A stretch of 8,388 nucleotides of DNA from a virus. Its lineage: Duplodnaviria > Heunggongvirae > Uroviricota > Caudoviricetes. This document shows, in pieces, positions 1-8,083 of the stretch (the stretch's first letter is position 1; each line of letters starts with the position of its first letter). A program made the position numbers and the translations under genes. Location of the stretch: the IMG/VR virus record IMGVR_UViG_2690315922_000011; one strand, written 5' to 3'. The notes beneath the pieces were generated by a model, which made no database searches, had not been told where the DNA came from, and worked only from the letters and a program-made list of their open reading frames with translations.

Positions 1-290
<290 letters not shown>

Positions 291-300
291 TCAAACATTA

Positions 301-2364
301 TTATTCCTCTGGGTAAGCTGAGCTAATCAGAGTGTCTTCTTGCATTCGATTAATGTGAGATGTAGTCCTTTCATCAATAATCTTTCCATCAAGAATTGTC
401 TGGGTAGTGACATTAATTGTCTGAGGCTTAATACTTACTGATGGTTTAATAACCTTTAAATCTTGAGTAAATGTTTCCACTCGACCTTTCAGATTATTTA
501 ATGACTCAGGTGAAAGCTGTGGAACATCTTTTGATTTACCCTGAACCATAGCCCATAAAACAGCGGCTAAAGAGTTCATGTCACCAGTTAATGCCTGGTC
601 TGTGGGTTCCACCTTTGCCCGTACAATTTTATCCATTGGATTATCGGACTTACTCATCTGACGTTCATAGAACGGTTTGACAATGGCATTAATCACATCA
701 GTTGCCATACCGACAATCATTACTTTGGTAATTGCATCAGCTACAGATAATTTCCCTTTACCACCTTCAACACTACCAGAGCGTGAATTAATTCTCCCTG
801 CTGCTGTATTCGCTACATTTCCAAGCGTGGAAATAGCCCTGATTAAGTTCCAGATACCACCTACAGCACCAATACCAGACCTCACAGCAACAATTCCAGC
901 AAGTCCCTTTAATGCACTTAACAGGCCATTTGCAATACCATCAGCCACAGTTTTTTGAGTGTCATTTAATTCTCTGTAAGCAAGGGTCACTCTGTCAAAG
1001 AATCCCTGCACTCGGTAGCTAATCGTGGTTAAATCATCAATACCGTTTGACATGCTTTTCATCAAGTCGCCAAAATGTTCACCAAGATTTTTAGATTGAC
1101 CACCCAGTGAATTAAGTAAATTAGTCAGTGACCTTGTAAAGTCTGTTAATCCTTCCTGTGAACCATCGAACATTAAGGCCAGATTATTATTCCATTCATT
1201 AGAAAGGCGACCTAACTGTGTCTGAGTAGAGTTAATAATCTTTTCCCATCCTCCCGCTTTATCAATCATCTTTCCCATTTCAGCGGATACTTTAGGGAGA
1301 ACATCTTTAGAAAGAACCTTACCGTCTTTCATAGCCTTGTCTAATTCTTCCGTAGTCATCCCAAGACTTCTGGCAAATAACTGAAAAGCACCTGCCATTC
1401 TGTCACCTAACTGACCGCGTAATTCTTCAGCCTGAATCTTTCCTTTAGATGCCATCTGCTCGAAAGCTTTTAAAATCCCGTTAATTTCATCGGTGCTTAG
1501 CCCCATTAATCTGGATGTGCCAATCACGTTGGAAAATAAGGATTCTTTCTGGCTTGTATCCATGTTACCAGCGCCAGCGGAAAACTTAGCGTAGCTTGAT
1601 AATGTTTCAATCTGGTCTACACCTGTTTTGCCAGCAAGACTCTTAACGAATTCTGTAGCTCGTTTAGCACCTTCATCACCTAAAACAAATTGTGCCGCTC
1701 GTTGTGATGCTTCTTTTTTCAAACCAATCTCCATCACCTTTCTGTAGGCTTCAAGGGCTGTTTGAAAACTATAAATGGCTGTACCTGCTTTAATTGCACT
1801 CGTGGCTAATACATCCAGACTATTTGAAGCATTTTCACTGTGATTACTTTTGCTGGTGGATGTGTGACCTCTGGACTTAATAAGAGCTTCACGTAGATTT
1901 TGATTTAACTTTGCCAGTTCACGATTAAAAGCTTCGTTTCCAAGTGTCTTAGCTTTGGAGCTCAGATTGTAATACTGCGCCTTGAACATTTTGGCTAACA
2001 GAGGGTCAATGCTATTTAGCTTGCTCATGTTCGAGCTATGCGCGGCTGTGATAGCTCTGTTGCCGCTAATTCGTGGTTGTCTAAGTGGCTTTAAAGTATC
2101 CTCAATTTCCGTTTTAATCTTAAACGCTTTAGTATTTTTAAGACGCTGCTCAATCTTGGAAATGGTTTTATCGACATTCTTTTCCATTACCTTGAGAGAG
2201 TCATTTAAAGGCGCAGGATTAACTTTAAAAGCTTTATTCAGTCGTTTCTCAATTCTTGATGCGATTTGCATCGTTTGTTTCTCGACTTTTTCCAGACCTT
2301 TTAAAACCTTCTGAGAGTTAAAACTTAACTCAATCAGAAAATCATCGACTTTAAATTGTGCCAT
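301..2364 (-). CDS. Phage tail tape-measure protein (tail length determinant)
   Basis: 687-aa ORF. K/E-rich coiled-coil-like N-terminus; segment LSTDEINGILKAFEQMASKGKIQAEELRGQLGDRMAGAFQLFARSLGMTTEEL resembles the conserved tape-measure core as I recall it; Gly/Ala-rich hydrophobic segment GLLSALKGLAGIVAVRSGIGAVGGIWNLIRAISTLG typical of these proteins. SD AGAGGTGA about 11 nt upstream of ATG 2364-2362. A downstream tail gene follows. Confidence 0.8.
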   Translation of the reverse strand: MAQFKVDDFLIELSFNSQKVLKGLEKVEKQTMQIASRIEKRLNKAFKVNPAPLNDSLKVMEKNVDKTISKIEQRLKNTKAFKIKTEIEDTLKPLRQPRISGNRAITAAHSSNMSKLNSIDPLLAKMFKAQYYNLSSKAKTLGNEAFNRELAKLNQNLREALIKSRGHTSTSKSNHSENASNSLDVLATSAIKAGTAIYSFQTALEAYRKVMEIGLKKEASQRAAQFVLGDEGAKRATEFVKSLAGKTGVDQIETLSSYAKFSAGAGNMDTSQKESLFSNVIGTSRLMGLSTDEINGILKAFEQMASKGKIQAEELRGQLGDRMAGAFQLFARSLGMTTEELDKAMKDGKVLSKDVLPKVSAEMGKMIDKAGGWEKIINSTQTQLGRLSNEWNNNLALMFDGSQEGLTDFTRSLTNLLNSLGGQSKNLGEHFGDLMKSMSNGIDDLTTISYRVQGFFDRVTLAYRELNDTQKTVADGIANGLLSALKGLAGIVAVRSGIGAVGGIWNLIRAISTLGNVANTAAGRINSRSGSVEGGKGKLSVADAITKVMIVGMATDVINAIVKPFYERQMSKSDNPMDKIVRAKVEPTDQALTGDMNSLAAVLWAMVQGKSKDVPQLSPESLNNLKGRVETFTQDLKVIKPSVSIKPQTINVTTQTILDGKIIDERTTSHINRMQEDTLISSAYPEE

Positions 2365-2430
2365 TCATAATTTTTCACCTCTTTAAGCGTGTTGTACGTG
2401 AATTCTATTTTTCAGTGTGGGTATTAACGT

Positions 2431-2479
2431 AGAAATAAAAAAGGGAGGACCAGCCAATAAATCAAGGCTAATCTCTCCC
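2431..2479 (-). terminator. Putative rho-independent terminator after the 72-aa gene
   Basis: On the minus strand: GGGAG..AGCC / GGCT..CTCCC interrupted stem (plus-strand 2443-2479, loop 2456-2465) followed by UUUUUUAUUUCU (complement of 2431-2442). Begins 7 nt after the stop codon at 2486-2488. Confidence 0.5.
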
Positions 2480-2485
2480 TGTGTA

Positions 2486-2704
2486 TCAATGTCTGACAAG
2501 ATAATGTAATTTCGTTTCACCTATGATTTGAGCATCAGAAGGAACACGGTCAATACACCACTTTGGAATCTTGCGTGTTTTTGATTTGCGTGAGGTGATA
2601 ATTTTATGATTACGCTCAACCCTCAATCTTGATTTATTGGGTTGTAGCTGGAGTCGTTCACAAACAGACCGAATAGTCTCTAAGCGTTCGTTCAAATCAA
2701 GCAT
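2486..2704 (-). CDS. Hypothetical small basic protein (72 aa), co-transcribed with the upstream 240-aa gene
   Basis: ORF MLDLNERLETIRSVCERLQLQPNKSRLRVERNHKIITSRKSKTRKIPKWCIDRVPSDAQIIGETKLHYLVRH, very R/K-rich. SD AAAGAGGTGA 4 nt before the ATG; the start lies 23 nt after the stop of the 240-aa gene; own terminator downstream. No family recognised. Confidence 0.6.
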   Translation of the reverse strand: MLDLNERLETIRSVCERLQLQPNKSRLRVERNHKIITSRKSKTRKIPKWCIDRVPSDAQIIGETKLHYLVRH

Positions 2705-2727
2705 TAATCACCTCTTTTAATTCATAA

Positions 2728-3447
2728 TTAAATAGCCTTTGCGTACTTGCTAGAAATCTTAATAAGCTGCTCAATGTCACCTTGCAAGGCAACCTTTTTC
2801 TGTGCCTCGTATTCGACTATCAAAGATTTCATTACATTAAATTCGTTTTTCAAATCCTGTTTTAACCTGTCCAACTTGTCAGCGTGACGCTTAAGCAAAT
2901 TATTTTCAGCCAGTTTAAAAATCTCTTCGTCGCTTTTGTCGCTTGTCAAAATGAATTGCCCTGAGCCTAATGTTGCAGGCTTCACATCAATTAAACGATG
3001 CCCCTCGGGAATATTTCGAATAACCTCCGAAACAAGTTCTCGTGGAGTACCATAACCACCGTTGTGATTTCCCTCGTAATAGACAAATGGGTTTGCTGCA
3101 ATTTCGTAAGCAACAACATGCTCGGATAGTTCCCCTGCATCTTTCATCTGAACTAATTTGTCGTAAGCGCTATCTAATCTAATTCGCTGCTCTTTAAGGA
3201 CTGGATAAAATCGTTTTTCAAGCTCAAGCAGCGCTTCACTTTTGCACAAATCCGGCATTTCCTGAGGAGCTTCAGGAGTCACATAGATAGTCATTTTCGG
3301 CAAAGATTTGAATTCCTTTTCGCGCTCAATTAATTTATCAAAAAATCTGCGTTGCTCTGACACTCCCGGATGCTGTGTGATAATTCCTGTGTCCCAATCA
3401 CCAAAACTATCAATTTTGCGACCATTCACAAAAATAGGATTTTCCAT
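2728..3447 (-). CDS. Hypothetical protein (240 aa) with C-terminal coiled-coil-like region; function unknown
   Basis: The ORF track extends this frame to 3564, but the ATG at 3447-3445 (MENPIFVNGRK...) has a strong SD (GAGGTG, 6-nt spacer), whereas the upstream ATG has none and its extension overlaps a terminator-like hairpin. C-terminal ~60 residues are heptad-like and K/E/L-rich (KLDRLKQDLKNEFNVMKSLIVEYEAQKKVALQGDIEQLIK). No known family recognised by eye. Confidence 0.6.
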   Translation of the reverse strand: MENPIFVNGRKIDSFGDWDTGIITQHPGVSEQRRFFDKLIEREKEFKSLPKMTIYVTPEAPQEMPDLCKSEALLELEKRFYPVLKEQRIRLDSAYDKLVQMKDAGELSEHVVAYEIAANPFVYYEGNHNGGYGTPRELVSEVIRNIPEGHRLIDVKPATLGSGQFILTSDKSDEEIFKLAENNLLKRHADKLDRLKQDLKNEFNVMKSLIVEYEAQKKVALQGDIEQLIKISSKYAKAI

Positions 3448-3548
3448 TATTTTCACCTCACATTTGTTCTGAATAAGTTTTTTTAAAGCACCCTCAGCAT
3501 GGCACGAGGTGAATTTTATTTGGGGCAGGTTTTTTGCCAAAGGTGCTT

Positions 3549-3574
3549 TAAAAAATGCCCTCATTCAAGAGGGC
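3549..3574 (-). terminator. Intrinsic-terminator-like hairpin inside the 5' leader of the 240-aa gene (possible attenuator)
   Basis: Minus strand reads GCCCUC-uugaau-GAGGGC (plus-strand 3557-3574) followed by AUUUUUUA (complement of 3549-3556). About 100 nt upstream of the start codon and downstream of the candidate promoter at 3740-3767. Confidence 0.4.
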
Positions 3575-3624
3575 GAAGTGAAGGAAAAGAAAGAATTATG
3601 AACTACTGAACAAATACTTTTGAA

Positions 3625-3652
3625 AAGGTCTTTCCGATTTAAAAAAGACCTT
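3625..3652 (-). other. Perfect 9-bp-stem hairpin in the same leader (RNA structure or weak terminator)
   Basis: AAGGTCTTT (3625-3633) and AAAGACCTT (3644-3652) are exact reverse complements around a 10-nt loop. On the minus strand it is followed by UUCAAAAGUAUUUGUU, only moderately U-rich. Confidence 0.4.
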
Positions 3653-3739
3653 GGCGAAAGCATTGCACTTCCATCTAGAATGTAGGAAATTAAGACAATT
3701 AAGTTAATTTAATTTAGGGAAATTACTCCCCATATAAAA

Positions 3740-3767
3740 ATGCTACCATAGAATTACCACCTGTCAA
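3740..3767 (-). promoter_or_regulatory. Candidate sigma70 promoter for the 240-aa/72-aa cassette
   Basis: Minus strand reads TTGACA (complement of 3762-3767), 16-bp spacer, then TGgTAGCAT (complement of 3740-3748), an extended -10-like element. This places the transcription start about 285 nt upstream of the ATG at 3447. Promoter calls by eye are tentative. Confidence 0.4.
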
Positions 3768-3852
3768 CAAAAATATAACAACCCGTGTTATTTTTCCATT
3801 GAAATTGCAAAGGAAAGTACTATTCCAAGCAACACCCACAAGATAATTAGCG

Positions 3853-4146
3853 TCATTCGTTTACTCCCAGAAATTGCAATGTAACAGCAGTCTTAATCAG
3901 CCTCTCCGGGCTAACGCTGAACTTGTTGGTTTCCGTGGTAATAAATCGCTTTAGGTTCACATCATCAACATTTAAAATCAATCGTGACTCATCAATTTCA
4001 ATGGTTTGAATAAAATCTTTAAAATTCTTGTTATCCATAACGTCACGCATCCTATCAAGATTAATTGCACTTGCAGCACCGTCCAGAGATTGCATCATTG
4101 CAGCGGTCATCTCATCAATCATAATTTGCATTGGGGAAGTGTTCAT
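3853..4146 (-). CDS. Hypothetical protein (97 aa)
   Basis: ORF MNTSPMQIMIDEMTAAMMQSLDGAASAINLDRMRDVMDNKNFKDFIQTIEIDESRLILNVDDVNLKRFITTETNKFSVSPERLIKTAVTLQFLGVNE with SD AGAGGA 8 nt before the ATG. No motif recognised. Confidence 0.55.
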   Translation of the reverse strand: MNTSPMQIMIDEMTAAMMQSLDGAASAINLDRMRDVMDNKNFKDFIQTIEIDESRLILNVDDVNLKRFITTETNKFSVSPERLIKTAVTLQFLGVNE

Positions 4147-6059: not shown

Positions 6060-6291
6060 TCATAAATTACCTCATACGTGAAAAGGCCAACCGGATAAAA
6101 CCGATTAGCCTGATGTGATTTAAATATCTGGGGGATTGATGGACTGATAAAGAAGCCCATGCCTGAAACAGTACGATGATTAAAACGCTGAGGTATACCC
6201 TGAATGAGAGGTTTTATATACGTCAATCATCTGACACCTCCCCAAGTGTTACCACTCCAAGACATGAACTTTTTTATCAGCCCATATAAAA

Positions 6292-6320
6292 ACTATACCA
6301 CACGTGATTATTAGTTGCAA
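6292..6320 (-). promoter_or_regulatory. Candidate sigma70 promoter directed toward the replication gene
   Basis: Minus strand reads TTGCAA (6315-6320), 17-bp spacer, then TGgTATAGT (complement of 6292-6300), an extended -10-like element. A strong SD-like GGGGAGGTG follows about 50 nt downstream (complement of about 6232-6241). Confidence 0.4.
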
Positions 6321-6393
6321 CAACTATTTCACTAAATTATTACCGTTTGATTACTTATTGTTCACCTCATAAATACCGGGATTTATTGGAAAA

Positions 6394-6540
6394 TCAGCCT
6401 AATCTTTCAGCAATTCTGTACGAGGTACTCAGGGGCATTCTGAGAGCCTCCGCAATGTACTTGATGGTTTTGCCCTCTGTTTCTGTTATCATCGGGCTTG
6501 CCTTATCAGGGCTTTGAAATGCCTCTGTAACTCCCCCCTC
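6394..6540 (-). pseudogene. Remnant of a serine-recombinase C-terminal HTH domain (truncated; N-terminal catalytic domain absent)
   Basis: Minus-strand frame reads ...FQSPDKASPMITETEGKTIKYIAEALRMPLSTSYRIAERLG-stop, with an in-frame stop upstream at 6541-6543. Compare the intact recombinase C-terminus GRPSKASPEAVQTLISQGKTRLQIQEELGISRATFYRLAK: shared KASP linker and STxYR-type HTH. Only 32 codons from the first ATG and no upstream start; it abuts hairpin repeat copy 1. Confidence 0.35.
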
Positions 6541-6541
6541 T

Positions 6542-6600
6542 TAACAGGAGAGAGGGTGATACATGAGACAAGAACCCTCCCTTCTTAAAAACCTTCTTGA
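6542..6600. repeat. Hairpin-containing direct repeat, copy 1 (~60 bp)
   Basis: Core GGAGAGAGGGTGATACATGAGACAAGAACCCTCC (6547-6580) matches copy 2 at 33 of 34 positions. Internal inverted repeat GAGGGT/ACCCTC (longer with mismatches) around a 16-nt loop that contains ATGAGAC. Flank similarity (ACC..CTTG..TCT) continues to about 6600. Confidence 0.6.
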
Positions 6601-6937
6601 CAATCTTTACAGACCTTGTTCAAGGTAATCACAATAGTTTTTCTTCCCTCGGCTTCCCGTGTTCCTCGGTTCGTTTATTGAGACCCTGAAAGACCCTGTA
6701 ACTCCTTCTTAACGGGAGAGAAAGAACATAGTGACCCCCAAGCGAAGCGCCCCTTTTAGTATGCTTTTTAATCACCATTTTAGCATTTAGTGCTTTTTAT
6801 TAAATTTAGCACTTTTTGCTAAAGACAAAACACTTGACAAATTGCTAAGATTGGACACATACCCCATCTTAACAGACTTTTAAGAGACTTTTAAACGGCC
6901 TGTTTAACCGGGTCACTATCCGGTTCTTCGTTCCCCC

Positions 6938-6951
6938 TCTATCTAGATAGA
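6938..6951. promoter_or_regulatory. 14-bp perfect palindrome TCTATCTAGATAGA (candidate operator or protein-binding site)
   Basis: The sequence equals its own reverse complement. Flanked by repeated CTGTTAAGA motifs (6953-6961, 6988-6996) and an AACCGG-n8-CCGGTT inverted repeat (6906-6925). Confidence 0.4.
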
Positions 6952-7081
6952 TACTGTTAAGATTTTTTAAGAAATCTCTTACGTCAACTGTTAAGATAAA
7001 CTTACCTTCCGTTAAAACAGTTCTGTCTAGCAATTTCATAATTGTCTGTCAAGTATCTTTGAAGGTACTATCAAGGGTCAC

Positions 7082-7145
7082 TAAGCGGGAGAGAGGGTGA
7101 TACATGAGATAAGAACCCTCCTGTTAAAAGACCACTTGGAAAGTC
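7082..7145. repeat. Hairpin-containing direct repeat, copy 2 (~60 bp)
   Basis: Core GGAGAGAGGGTGATACATGAGATAAGAACCCTCC (7088-7121); same orientation as copy 1, 541 bp downstream. Followed by the 13-bp palindrome AAGTCTGAGACTT (7140-7152). Confidence 0.6.
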
Positions 7146-7534
7146 TGAGACTTTAGTAAAATCTGTGAATACGGCTTCTCAGACGCTCTGTAACGCATTC
7201 TAGGCGATTTTACCCCCTTATTTTAAGGTGGGTGGTACATCCCTATAGACTACCCCTAAAAATGGGGTTAAAACTCGCTACAGAGCTTTCTATGAGATTA
7301 GCTTCTAATCGAATCAACTATGAGGCTTGGCAGAGTTGCATAAATTTTATACAGCACTTATTCAGCTTCTAAATTTTTTATAAAAATGACTAGCCCTTCT
7401 TCAGGTTCTCTTCCTCATTAACTCCCAAAAATATCTGTGAGTGTCTATACCCGTTTGGTAGCCCAGATTCACGATATAGCCCCTCCCTTGCAAAATCTGG
7501 AAATATCTGTCATATCCTTATGACTGTAGAATAA

Positions 7535-8083
7535 TCACTTCGCCAATCGGTAAAAGGTCGCTCTAGAGATGCCTAGCTCTTCCTGAATCTGCAACCTCGT
7601 CTTACCTTGTGAAATGAGCGTCTGAACAGCCTCTGGAGAAGCTTTTGAAGGTCGTCCCATGTGAACCCCTTCAGCTTTAGCACGCTCAATGCCAGCCTTT
7701 CTACGCTCACTGATAAGGTCTTTTTCAAGGTCAGCTAAGCCAGCCATCATAGTAAGCATTGCTTTACCGATTGCCGTAGACAAGTCGAACCCTTCACGCA
7801 ACGAAACAACCCTCACACCTTTAGCCTGTAGTGTCTCCACGTTAGAGAGTACATCAACAGTATTACGCCCTAAACGGTCAATCGCTGCCACAGCTAACGT
7901 ATCGTCACACCTTACATAGTTCATCATGTCTATAAAGCCATCTCTGTTGGTAGCCTTTGTAGTTCCTGAGACAGCTTCATCAATAAACCATTTATCGACC
8001 TTGTGAACCTTCTCTATCTGTAATTTCTGGTTGTCTATAGACTGCTCTCGTGTTGATACCCTGCAATAACCAATCACCGCCAT
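7535..8083 (-). CDS. Site-specific serine recombinase (small resolvase/DNA-invertase family)
   Basis: 182-aa ORF. N-terminal IGYCRVSTREQ with the catalytic-serine context; DRLGRN motif; C-terminal HTH GKTRLQIQEELGISRATFYRLAK. Size and layout match resolvase/Hin-Gin-type recombinases. SD-like GGGGGG 4 nt before the ATG. Confidence 0.9.
   Translation of the reverse strand: MAVIGYCRVSTREQSIDNQKLQIEKVHKVDKWFIDEAVSGTTKATNRDGFIDMMNYVRCDDTLAVAAIDRLGRNTVDVLSNVETLQAKGVRVVSLREGFDLSTAIGKAMLTMMAGLADLEKDLISERRKAGIERAKAEGVHMGRPSKASPEAVQTLISQGKTRLQIQEELGISRATFYRLAK

What the first reader, a model, noticed from the sequence alone, without database searches (positions are those of the whole stretch)
2431..3767. 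Self-contained two-gene cassette (240-aa + basic 72-aa protein) with its own promoter, long structured leader and terminator, between the regulatory genes and the tape-measure gene
The 240-aa and 72-aa genes are tightly linked (23-nt gap, SD for the second gene right after the first stop) and bracketed by a near-consensus promoter about 285 nt upstream and a terminator 7 nt downstream. The leader carries a perfect 9-bp hairpin and a GC hairpin plus U-run that looks like an intrinsic terminator before the start codon, the layout expected for antitermination or attenuation control (compare lambda pR'/tR'). Neither protein shows a motif I can assign. Independently regulated units like this in phage late regions are often morons carrying accessory functions such as anti-phage defence, superinfection exclusion, toxin/antitoxin pairs or host modulation. 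The structural alternative (major tail protein plus chaperone) is disfavoured by the coiled-coil C-terminus, the basic 72-aa partner and the terminator before the tape-measure gene, but not excluded.
Basis: partly seen in the sequence, partly recalled or inferred. Interest (0 to 1): 0.6.

Follow-up and report, generated by a model that had tools for sequence, protein, structure and literature searches.

The report
Riboregulated front of satellite tail operon
The two genes are real and tightly regulated, but they are not an optional add-on of a phage: they are a fixed part of a small, widespread chromosomal 'phage satellite' of Escherichia that carries its own tape-measure and baseplate genes, apparently to exploit FelixO1-type phages.

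Summary
That includes the 239-aa and 72-aa genes, the sigma-70 promoter, the structured leader with an intrinsic terminator, and the terminator before the tape-measure gene (TMP).

This is not a phage late region. It is a roughly 11-12 kb element that integrates with a large serine recombinase. It has no capsid, terminase, sheath, tube or lysis genes. It always carries the gene order p240, p72, terminator, TMP, Dit-like. That order mirrors TAC, TAC, TMP, Dit of Felixounavirus phages.

The cassette is therefore core, not a moron. Both proteins are orphans: no Pfam, PHROG, NCBIfam, PADLOC, PDB or fold match, and NCBI's name 'transposase' has no support. p240 is a helical hairpin with a small alpha/beta tip. 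Its alleles diverge to about 22% identity and reassort independently of p72 and TMP.

The leader is more elaborate than noted. It has two covarying stem-loops, one or two terminators, and a 19-bp hairpin whose loop pairs with the ribosome-binding site.

Best reading: this is the gated front half of a satellite tail-hijack operon, closest to the TAC-TMP-BhuB operon of Vibrio PLEs. The biochemical roles of the two proteins are inferred, not shown.

The parts
3740..3767 (-). Sigma-70 promoter: TTGACA (3767-3762), 16-nt spacer, extended -10 TGgTAGCAT (3748-3740). The transcription start is inferred near 3733.
   Evidence: GTTGACA and a -10 hexamer are conserved in 39/39 loci.
3717..3731 (-). Stem-loop at the 5' end of the leader (GGGGA-GUAAUU-UCCC).
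   Evidence: Equivalent hairpins with different sequences (GGGAGAG/CTCTCTC, GGAAGAG/CTCTTCC, AGAGAG/CTCTCT) occur in the other loci.
3655..3673 (-). Leader stem-loop SL1: a 7-bp stem with a GCAAU loop, nearly invariant across loci.
   Evidence: 100% of cells paired; the window copy keeps the stem through two double changes.
3625..3652 (-).
   Evidence: 5 of 11 pairs with changes on both sides; 97.6% paired.
3550..3574 (-). Intrinsic-terminator-like hairpin in the leader: GCCCTC-TTGAAT-GAGGGC followed by A and T6.
   Evidence: The GCCCT..AGGGC stem plus T-run is present in all loci, and most have two such terminators.
3480..3554 (-). Long leader hairpin with a 19-bp stem. Its 5' arm begins in the terminator's U-run. 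Its loop carries the anti-SD UUCACCUC (3513-3506).
   Evidence: 96.6% paired; 11 pairs with double changes; 0/500 shuffles reach this; slid controls 39-52%. Many G-U pairs make the structure strand-specific, so it is RNA.
3452..3459 (-). Shine-Dalgarno sequence GAGGUGAA of the 239-aa gene, complementary to the loop at 3513-3506.
   Evidence: Loop-SD pairing is kept in all four sequence types. The cognate pairing is the best or joint best. It beats shuffled loops in at least 970 of 1000 trials for each type.
2728..3447 (-). p240: a 239-aa orphan protein. It has a disordered N-terminus, a long antiparallel helical hairpin (69-103 and 173-221) with a small alpha/beta domain at the tip (109-170), and a conserved C-terminal KY[AS]KA[IV] motif.
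   Evidence: No family or fold match.
2486..2704 (-). p72: a 72-aa basic protein (pI 10.4). It has an N-terminal helix, a basic disordered linker and a small beta-rich C-terminal domain.
   Evidence: No family or fold match.
2437..2479 (-). Intrinsic terminator between p72 and the tape-measure gene (stem 2479-2443, T6 at 2442-2437).
   Evidence: Conserved in 27/27 distinct intergenic variants, with a covarying inner stem.
301..2364 (-). Tape-measure protein, 687 aa. It aligns over its full length with the Felixounavirus TMP (30% identity, conserved N- and C-termini) and is 55 aa shorter.
1..224 (-). 5' part of the Dit-like baseplate gene, which runs off the window. It is 256 aa in the parent contig. 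About 87% nucleotide identity to Felixounavirus phages.

Best explanation
The cassette is the promoter-proximal half of the one conserved helper-exploitation operon of a small phage-satellite-like island. The operon reads p240, p72, terminator, TMP, Dit-like.

The island is about 11-12 kb and integrates with a large serine recombinase. It has a replication module but no capsid, terminase, sheath, tube or lysis genes. Its tail genes are of the Felixounavirus (FelixO1) type.

Shown:
- The gene order is invariant.
- The promoter is conserved.
- The leader RNA contains two covarying stem-loops, one or two intrinsic terminators, and a long hairpin whose loop is complementary to the ribosome-binding site of p240.
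- A further conserved terminator separates p72 from TMP.

Inferred:
- In an uninfected cell, transcription from the strong promoter stops in the leader, and any read-through RNA is translationally closed.
- On helper infection, an unidentified factor (an antiterminator, an RNA-processing step or an RNA-binding protein) lets RNA polymerase pass the leader terminator(s) and the p72-TMP terminator and frees the ribosome-binding site. All four proteins are then made together.
- p240 and p72 sit where the helper has its two tail assembly chaperones. They most likely act in virion assembly, either steering tail assembly onto the satellite's own TMP and Dit or blocking the helper's version. This would parallel Vibrio PLEs, which build chimeric tails from their own TAC, TMP and hub.
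- p240 is a fast-diverging protein that reassorts independently, so it is the better candidate for the part that touches a helper protein.
For: Context:
- Three fully delimited E. coli islands share the same architecture and lie between ordinary chromosomal genes.
- The other island genes give no capsid, terminase or lysis hit.
- 545 of 5426 complete E. coli genomes match part of the window.
- GC content is 39%.

Synteny:
- p240, p72 and TMP co-occur in all 39 loci where they can be seen, and Dit follows TMP wherever the sequence reaches that far.
- The same holds for a 36%-identical homologue.
- Felixounavirus EcoM2 has TAC132, TAC79, TMP742, Dit265 in the same order.
- The satellite TMP is 30% identical over its full length, with conserved termini, and 55 aa shorter.
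- Only Felixounavirus phages give full-length TMP hits.
- The start of the Dit gene is 87% identical at the DNA level to these phages.

Regulation:
- Promoter conservation.
- SL1 and SL2 covariation.
- Leader terminators.
- Long-hairpin covariation with G-U pairs.
- Anti-SD to SD pairing.
- Conserved terminator downstream of p72.
- No promoter-like site between that terminator and TMP.

Precedent: PLEs encode TAC-TMP-BhuB and build chimeric, shorter tails. PLE11 adds an 80-aa protein, Rta, that blocks helper tail assembly through the helper's TMP (PMC12987554).
Against: - No homology or fold similarity of p240 or p72 to any tail assembly chaperone, scaffold or other characterised protein.
- p72 is strongly basic, whereas the phage chaperones are acidic.
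- There is no frameshift arrangement.
- p240 allele similarity does not track p72 or any TMP segment (r from -0.06 to 0.15). This argues against allele-specific partnership with the satellite TMP.
- No helper phage, induction or packaging has been shown for this element. The inducing factor is unknown.
- The SL1-SL2 motif is absent from a complete Felixounavirus genome, and the leader has no BLAST match in phages.
- TMP and Dit could instead be transcribed from an unrecognised phage-type promoter.
Confidence: 0.55

Rival explanations
1. Capsid-size redirection. p240, alone or with p72, is an external or internal scaffold that makes the helper's coat protein assemble small capsids fitting the 11-12 kb island. 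This would be analogous to P4 Sid, PLE TcaP or SaPI CpmA/CpmB.
For: - The island is about one seventh of the 86-89 kb helper genome and has no recognisable capsid gene.
- p240 is a largely helical protein of about 240 aa with long coiled-coil arms and a conserved C-terminal peptide.
- Its size resembles P4 Sid and p72 matches the size of SaPI CpmB (from my own knowledge, not tested).
- Fast, independent allele turnover would suit a protein that binds a helper protein.
Against: - The genes are linked to TMP and Dit, not to any head gene.
- No experiment bears on this.
Confidence: 0.2
2. Helper-interference or defence proteins. p240 and/or p72 inhibit helper virion (tail) assembly or another helper step, like PLE11 Rta or the Tai/Tab systems, and are not needed for satellite spread. 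This is the nearest surviving form of the first reader's idea.
For: - The cassette has its own promoter and terminator.
- p240 alleles are very divergent and reassort freely, as expected in an arms race.
- A small (80-aa) satellite protein that targets the helper TMP is known from a satellite that also encodes its own TMP; there its gene lies outside the tail gene cluster (PMC12987554).
Against: - The cassette is never absent and is never replaced by unrelated cargo, as happens at true defence hotspots.
- No PADLOC hit.
- The leader terminators and the closed ribosome-binding site argue against standing expression. Rta, by contrast, is made before infection.
Confidence: 0.15
3. Highly diverged but true tail assembly chaperones of the satellite TMP.
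For: - Their position immediately upstream of TMP mirrors TAC-TAC-TMP in the helper.
- p240 is mildly acidic (pI 5.7).
- PLEs carry a TAC next to their TMP.
Against: - No profile or pairwise similarity.
- No TAC fold among the fold hits.
- No overlapping reading frames or frameshift arrangement. The gap is 23 nt with its own ribosome-binding site.
- p72 has pI 10.4, against 4.5-4.9 for the phage TACs.
- There is no co-variation with TMP.
Confidence: 0.1
4. Transposase, as named by NCBI for most of the more than 2000 homologues.
For: Only the database name.
Against: - No transposase HMM in NCBIfam or Pfam.
- The predicted fold is a coiled-coil hairpin without a catalytic domain.
- The gene always sits at one fixed place inside the island.
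Confidence: 0.01
5. Excision or packaging accessory. p72, being basic, or p240 is a directionality factor for the large serine recombinase, or a DNA-binding packaging specificity factor.
For: - The island has a large serine recombinase and no recognised directionality factor or small terminase.
- p72 is very basic.
- Known serine-integrase directionality factors are unrelated small or ~240-aa proteins (from my own knowledge).
Against: - The genes are co-transcribed with tail genes and lie far from the recombinase's regulatory side.
- No DNA-binding fold was detected.
Confidence: 0.07

Closest known systems
Tail operon (TAC-TMP-BhuB) of Vibrio cholerae PLE satellites, and PLE11 Rta (Mathur, Boyd et al., Nature 2026, PMC12987554)
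   Same: - A small island integrated by a large serine recombinase, parasitising a lytic myovirus.
- It carries its own divergent, shorter TMP and a baseplate protein, preceded by small accessory genes.
- The satellite TMP is 20-30% identical to the helper's.
- A small orphan protein of about 80 aa is linked to TMP biology.
   Different: - Different host and helper (Escherichia and Felixounavirus).
- The two upstream proteins are not TAC-like and have no detectable relatives.
- Here the baseplate gene is Dit-like.
- An elaborate terminator and anti-SD leader, and an internal terminator, are present here. Nothing comparable appeared in the passages of the PLE paper that I read.
- Homology to PLE proteins could not be tested.
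- No experiments exist for this element.
Putative E. coli satellites with MCP, Dec, TMP and baseplate hub (Barth et al., NAR Genom Bioinform 2023, PMC10448857)
   Same: E. coli chromosomal islands that carry a TMP and a baseplate component but lack most tail genes.
   Different: - Those are mostly integrated at tRNA genes by a tyrosine integrase.
- They carry capsid and decoration genes and a RepA_N initiator.
- They are linked to Justusliebigvirus phages.
- None of three checked E. coli accessions from this island family (CP010157, CP121151, CP017631) is in their table.
- The Rep protein of this window has no phage counterpart.
Lambda pR'-tR' with Q, HK022 put RNA, and the lambda N leader (RNase III and translational closure)
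   Same: - A strong promoter is followed closely by a terminator, with further terminators downstream.
- Two adjacent stem-loops lie in the nascent leader.
- A long stem sequesters the ribosome-binding site.
   Different: - No sequence or Rfam relationship.
- No Q, N or nut/qut element was identified.
- The activating factor is unknown.
- The resemblance is one of layout only.
Felixounavirus tail assembly chaperones (132 and 79 aa, upstream of TMP)
   Same: The same position and order relative to TMP and the Dit-like gene.
   Different: - No similarity.
- Different sizes (239 and 72 aa).
- The second protein has the opposite charge.

Membership tests
Tail assembly chaperone (gpG/gpGT type) | Encoded immediately upstream of the tape-measure gene | tested here: met
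Tail assembly chaperone (gpG/gpGT type) | Sequence or profile similarity to known TAC families | tested here: not met
   No Pfam or PHROG hit. No BLASTP alignment to the Felixounavirus TACs.
Tail assembly chaperone (gpG/gpGT type) | Two overlapping frames joined by a programmed -1 frameshift | tested here: not met
   There is a 23-nt gap with an independent ribosome-binding site and ATG. The gap is 8-24 nt in 18 of 19 variants.
Tail assembly chaperone (gpG/gpGT type) | TAC fold | tested here: not met
   p240 gives only coiled-coil matches. p72 gives nothing significant. The models have only moderate confidence (pLDDT 78 and 76).
PLE-type satellite tail operon | Carried by a small integrated element that lacks most virion genes | tested here: met
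PLE-type satellite tail operon | Own TMP that is homologous to the helper TMP but divergent and of different length, with an adjacent baseplate gene | tested here: met
   30% identity; 687 against 742 aa. Dit-like gene downstream.
PLE-type satellite tail operon | Satellite proteins incorporated into chimeric tails; helper dependence | not testable with these tools
   Needs infection, electron microscopy and virion proteomics.
PLE-type satellite tail operon | Homology to PLE proteins | not tested
Moron (independently expressed accessory cassette) | Own promoter and terminator | tested here: met
Moron (independently expressed accessory cassette) | Present in some and absent from other closely related elements | tested here: not met
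   Present in 39/39 loci, including distant alleles.
Known anti-phage defence systems or toxin-antitoxin pairs | Match to a described defence or TA protein family | tested here: not met
   The only PADLOC hit is a chance-level Cas6 match at E = 0.005. No Pfam TA domains.
Transposase | Recognisable catalytic domain | tested here: not met
Processive antitermination leader (put, or Q/qut type) | Promoter-proximal terminator(s), with further terminators inside the operon | tested here: met
Processive antitermination leader (put, or Q/qut type) | Identified antiterminator RNA or protein, and read-through shown | tested here: inconclusive
   Two covarying stem-loops exist. There is no Rfam match, no copy in the phage and no antiterminator gene recognised. 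Read-through itself is not testable here.
Capsid-size redirecting scaffold (Sid / TcaP / CpmAB) | Structural or sequence similarity to a known redirecting scaffold | tested here: inconclusive
   None appears among the listed fold hits, and these proteins are not all related to each other. Function is not testable here.

The most novel reading that the evidence does not exclude
The window belongs to an undescribed, common family of PLE-like satellites of Escherichia and relatives that parasitise FelixO1-type lytic phages. In this reading, its p240-p72-TMP-Dit operon is switched on by the helper through a new RNA leader that combines processive antitermination with opening of a closed ribosome-binding site. 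p240 and p72 would be a new class of proteins that redirect or sabotage tail (or head) assembly.
Probability: 0.3. Interest if true: 0.8.

Novelty: new variant of a known kind. Interest (0 to 1): 0.62.

Why it matters
Satellites that rebuild the helper's tail with their own tape measure were shown experimentally only in 2026, and only for Vibrio PLEs. How the satellite parts are chosen over the phage's remains unknown.

This island would put the same problem into E. coli with FelixO1-type phages, which are easy to work with and are used in phage typing and therapy. About a tenth of complete E. coli genomes match part of the window.

It offers two small orphan proteins as direct candidates for the missing mechanism. 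It also offers a compact leader RNA, supported by covariation, as a candidate sensor of infection.

It would also correct a systematic misannotation: more than 2000 proteins are currently called 'transposase'.

Tried and rejected
1. Family searches for both proteins in Pfam, PHROGs, NCBIfam, PADLOC and PDB sequences, with single sequences and with a profile, found nothing usable.
3. An exhaustive search of 1.8 billion representative proteins and a profile search showed a closed, narrow family with no informative distant relative.
4. tblastn of p240 and of the Rep protein against phage genomes gave no match. Megablast of the window against plasmids gave no match.
5. Rfam found no family in the window.
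6. I asked whether the leader copies a helper RNA. BLAST of a leader against phages found nothing. A covariance model of SL1-SL2 run over a complete Felixounavirus genome gave only its own site (best phage E = 0.32).
7. I asked whether the terminated leader acts as a small RNA against helper tail-gene start regions. Duplex energies were no better than shuffles, so the test was uninformative.
8. Leader-peptide attenuation: the ORF starting at the ATG in the SL1 loop ends in the terminator in this window, but it is 5-58 codons long in other loci. Rejected.
9. The longer 278-aa reading of the first gene is not supported by homologue lengths.
10. An internal promoter-like site at 3540-3513 lies inside the long hairpin and is not conserved in all leader types.
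11. The first genome-contig scan with a single protein found nothing, and the second found two loci. The 16-mer scans returned many chance hits, which were filtered by tblastn.
12. The Tai paper gave no usable link.
Full report
**What is there**

All genes of the window run on the minus strand. From upstream to downstream they are:
- a small serine recombinase (8083-7535);
- an ORF-free stretch;
- a winged-helix replication-initiator-like protein (6059-5277);
- three small genes;
- the feature under study;
- a 687-aa tape-measure protein (TMP, 2364-301; PF20155, phrog_4036);
- the start of a further gene at 224.

The cassette is as described. One ORF runs 3447-2728 and encodes 239 aa. After a 23-nt gap with GAGGTGA comes a second ORF, 2704-2486, encoding 72 aa with pI 10.4.

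Upstream lies TTGACA, a 16-nt spacer, and TG-n-TAGCAT at 3767-3740. The leader of about 286 nt folds much better than shuffles (z = -4.9). It contains the 9-bp hairpin at 3652-3625 and a GC hairpin with a U-run at 3574-3550. Seven nucleotides after the stop of the 72-aa gene there is a long stem followed by T6 (2479-2437).

On one sequence alone the promoter and terminator matches are no more frequent than in shuffles. Their reality rests on the comparison below.

**What the window belongs to**

Only bases 1-209 match phages, at about 87% identity, and always Felixounavirus (FelixO1-like) phages. Plasmids do not match. Part of the window matches 545 of 5426 complete E. coli genomes, always on the chromosome, at about 85-88% identity over roughly half its length.

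The closest proteins are from Escherichia albertii, so the window is probably from that species.

Three E. coli copies can be delimited. They lie between wrbA and ymdF, inside the DUF72 gene next to yecD, and inside mdtG. They are about 11-12 kb, or 14.8 kb with an IS21 insertion. The gene content is the same each time:
- a large serine recombinase;
- a Dit-like baseplate gene;
- TMP;
- a gene of about 70 aa;
- a gene of about 236 aa;
- a 470-565-nt non-coding stretch;
- several small genes;
- a replication gene;
- a 1.5-1.9 kb largely ORF-free stretch;
- a small serine recombinase.

No capsid, terminase, sheath, tube or lysis gene is detectable. The parent contig of the window shows the gene after TMP to be a 256-aa Dit-like protein.

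GC content is 39%, well below that of Escherichia chromosomes (about 50%, from general knowledge). This is the anatomy of a phage satellite, not of a phage late region.

**The likely helper**

The TMP aligns end to end with the Felixounavirus TMP. Identity is 30%. The first 45 residues and the C-terminal end are conserved. The satellite TMP is 687 aa against 742 aa in the phage. Among 1050 phage records with any hit, only Felixounavirus-type genomes give full-length matches.

In phage EcoM2 the order is sheath, tube, TAC (132 aa), TAC (79 aa), TMP (742 aa), Dit-like (265 aa). The island has p240, p72, TMP, Dit-like, so the cassette occupies the chaperone positions. It is nevertheless not recognisably related to the chaperones. 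BLASTP finds no alignment. The phage chaperones are acidic (pI 4.9 and 4.5), while p72 has pI 10.4. There is no overlapping-frame arrangement.

**Is the cassette optional?**

No. I collected 39 loci: the window's own contig plus 38 from E. coli genomes, species-representative genomes, IMG/VR and metagenomes. All have the p240 homologue followed by the p72 homologue and then TMP wherever the sequence extends that far.

A homologue only 36% identical sits in the same architecture. So does the clade that is only 24% identical (L005). The single variation seen is an extra gene inserted between p240 and p72 in one locus.

**The proteins**

p240 has 2322-2367 relatives, nearly all from Escherichia. 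They collapse to 15 clusters at 50% identity among 1.8 billion representative proteins. NCBI names them 'transposase', but no NCBIfam or Pfam model supports this.

The AlphaFold model (pLDDT 78) shows:
- a disordered first 60 residues;
- a long antiparallel helical hairpin (69-103 and 173-221);
- a small alpha/beta domain at the tip (109-170), carrying the invariant N-D-G-x-G and P-E-G-x-R motifs;
- a conserved C-terminal KY[AS]KA[IV].

p72 has about 100 relatives in Escherichia, Shigella, Citrobacter and Kluyvera. Its model (pLDDT 76) has an N-terminal helix, a basic disordered linker and a small beta-rich domain. It has no structural match.

Across 25-29 loci, p240 alleles average 50% identity, with a minimum of 22%. 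Their similarity is uncorrelated with that of p72 or of any TMP segment (r from -0.06 to 0.15). For example, L005 and the window share 91% identity in TMP and 78% in p72, but only 24% in p240. The modules therefore reassort. p240 does not appear to be matched allele-for-allele to its neighbours, which suggests its partner lies outside the island.

**The leader**

The 39 leaders are 300-520 nt long and differ by whole modules, yet they share a set of features.

1. GTTGACA and a -10 hexamer, most often TTGACA-17-CATAAT, occur in every locus.
2. A stem-loop lies at the 5' end. Its sequence changes but its pairing is kept.
3. There are two adjacent stem-loops. SL1 has a 7-bp stem and a GCAAU loop (window 3673-3655). 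SL2 is at window 3652-3625. In 27 distinct sequences, 98.6% of cells are paired and 7 of 18 pairs show changes on both sides. No shuffle out of 500 reaches this. Sliding the partners drops pairing to 44-63%.
4. There are one or two intrinsic terminators of the form GCCCT...AGGGC plus a T-run. The window has the short form with one, at 3574-3550.
5. Directly after the T-run comes a 19-bp hairpin (window 3554-3480). It is 96.6% paired, with 11 of 23 pairs changed on both sides, 0/500 shuffles reaching this, and slid controls at 39-52%. Its many G-U pairs would be A-C mismatches on the other strand, so this is an RNA structure of the coding strand and not a protein-binding DNA palindrome.
6. The loop of that hairpin is complementary to the ribosome-binding region of p240 in each of four sequence types. 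In the window this is UUCACCUC (3513-3506) against GAGGUGAA (3459-3452). In other loci it is CCUCUUCUAAG against CUUAGAAGAGG. The cognate pairing is the best or joint best, and it beats 970-1000 of 1000 shuffled loops.

The terminator after p72 is present in all 27 distinct intergenic variants, and its inner stem covaries. No promoter-like site lies between it and TMP.

**How it most likely works**

Shown:
- one conserved promoter;
- terminators both in the leader and between p72 and TMP;
- a ribosome-binding site that can be closed by a conserved loop.

Inferred:
- By default the promoter yields short terminated leader RNA, and any read-through is translationally silent.
- A signal tied to helper infection lets RNA polymerase read through all the terminators and opens the ribosome-binding site.
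- p240, p72, TMP and Dit are then made together.

The layout recalls lambda pR'-tR' with Q, the two-stem-loop put RNAs of HK022, and the RNase III-sensitive N leader. Those comparisons come from general knowledge and concern layout only. Rfam has no match. The SL1-SL2 model finds nothing in a complete Felixounavirus genome. The leader has no BLAST match in phages. A conserved leader peptide is excluded.

**What the proteins do**

This part is inference. The best precedent is the Vibrio PLE satellites. They carry TAC-TMP-BhuB and build chimeric tails with their own, shorter TMP. PLE11 adds an 80-aa orphan protein, Rta, that blocks helper tail assembly through the helper TMP. How PLE components are preferred is unknown (PMC12987554).

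By position, p240 and p72 are the obvious candidates for such a role here: either promoting use of the satellite TMP and Dit or disabling the helper's. The main alternative is capsid-size redirection. The island is about one seventh of the helper genome, has no capsid gene, and p240 is a helical protein of Sid-like size. A pure defence role, true but unrecognisable chaperones, and an excision or packaging factor remain possible at lower probability. 'Transposase' is rejected.

**Novelty**

E. coli satellites carrying a TMP and a baseplate hub have been proposed before (PMC10448857). Those have tyrosine integrases and capsid genes and are linked to Justusliebigvirus. Three checked E. coli accessions from this family (CP010157, CP121151, CP017631) are not in their table.

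TMP-bearing satellites are also reported from mycobacteria (PMC12822802). I found no paper linking satellites to Felixounavirus, though the library searched is incomplete.

The cassette is thus a new variant of a known kind. It is a satellite tail-module operon, with two orphan proteins in place of chaperones and a distinctive leader supported by covariation.

**Limits**

- No expression, induction or packaging data exist.
- The helper is inferred from homology.
- The structure models have only moderate confidence.
- The 39 loci fall into about four leader sequence types, so the number of independent compensatory events is smaller than the cell counts suggest.

Noticed in passing
window 3788-3856 (minus strand): A 22-codon hydrophobic ORF (MTLIILWVLLGIVLSFAISMEK) overlaps the stop codon of the 97-aa gene (ATGA) and ends just upstream of the cassette promoter. 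The leader printouts suggest similar short hydrophobic ORFs at the same place in L001, L005 and L006 (by-eye reading, partial at the 5' end). It may be a small membrane peptide.
   Followed up: partly
window 6060-7535: A 1.5-kb stretch has no ORF longer than 69 aa. It carries two copies of a 41-nt element (6540-6580 and 7081-7121, 90% identical; each contains a GAGGGT/ACCCTC hairpin) and at least 7 copies of a TTAACRG motif in both orientations. It may be the replication origin with iterons, or non-coding RNA genes. In some E. coli copies a Dam methyltransferase gene sits here.
   Followed up: partly
window 1-209 and the whole window: The first 209 bases (the start of the Dit-like gene) are about 87% identical at the DNA level to Felixounavirus phages, while the adjacent TMP is only 30% identical at the protein level. 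This implies recent exchange of the Dit gene's 5' end between phage and island. The window GC content (39%) is far below that of Escherichia.
   Followed up: partly
related loci (L001-L152); window 301-2364: Lengths of the complete satellite TMPs vary among loci, from 647 to 726 aa. The C-terminal third is the most variable part (mean 43% identity). This would predict different tail lengths among satellite variants.
   Followed up: partly
window 2365-2436 and the equivalent in other loci: Between the p72 terminator and the TMP start, many loci carry a further long hairpin (CTACGTGAAA...TTTACGTAG) just before the TMP ribosome-binding site. The window has a degenerate version. TMP may therefore have a leader element of its own.
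   Followed up: no
L003 10711-11160: One locus (Escherichia sp. MOD1-EC7003) has about 440 nt inserted between p240 and p72. The insert has its own ribosome-binding site and looked open in one frame on inspection (not checked with an ORF tool). It is the only departure from the fixed gene order.
   Followed up: no
window 2728-3447 and more than 2000 database homologues: NCBI annotation calls this protein family 'transposase' without any supporting HMM or domain. It appears to be a propagated misannotation.
   Followed up: yes
window 7535-8083: A 182-aa resolvase/invertase-type serine recombinase (phrog_125, DNA invertase) sits at the end of the island opposite the large serine recombinase. Its role is unknown. 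It could act in multimer resolution, inversion, or as a helper for excision.
   Followed up: no
L001 15202-19431: In E. coli E47 the island's large serine recombinase gene is split by an IS21-family (ISEc12) insertion, so that copy is probably immobilised.
   Followed up: no
window 3513-3540 (minus strand): A second promoter-like site (TTGGCA-16-TAAAAT) lies inside the long leader hairpin. The TTGGCA is shared by two other leader types, but the -10 element is not, so the site is probably fortuitous.
   Followed up: partly
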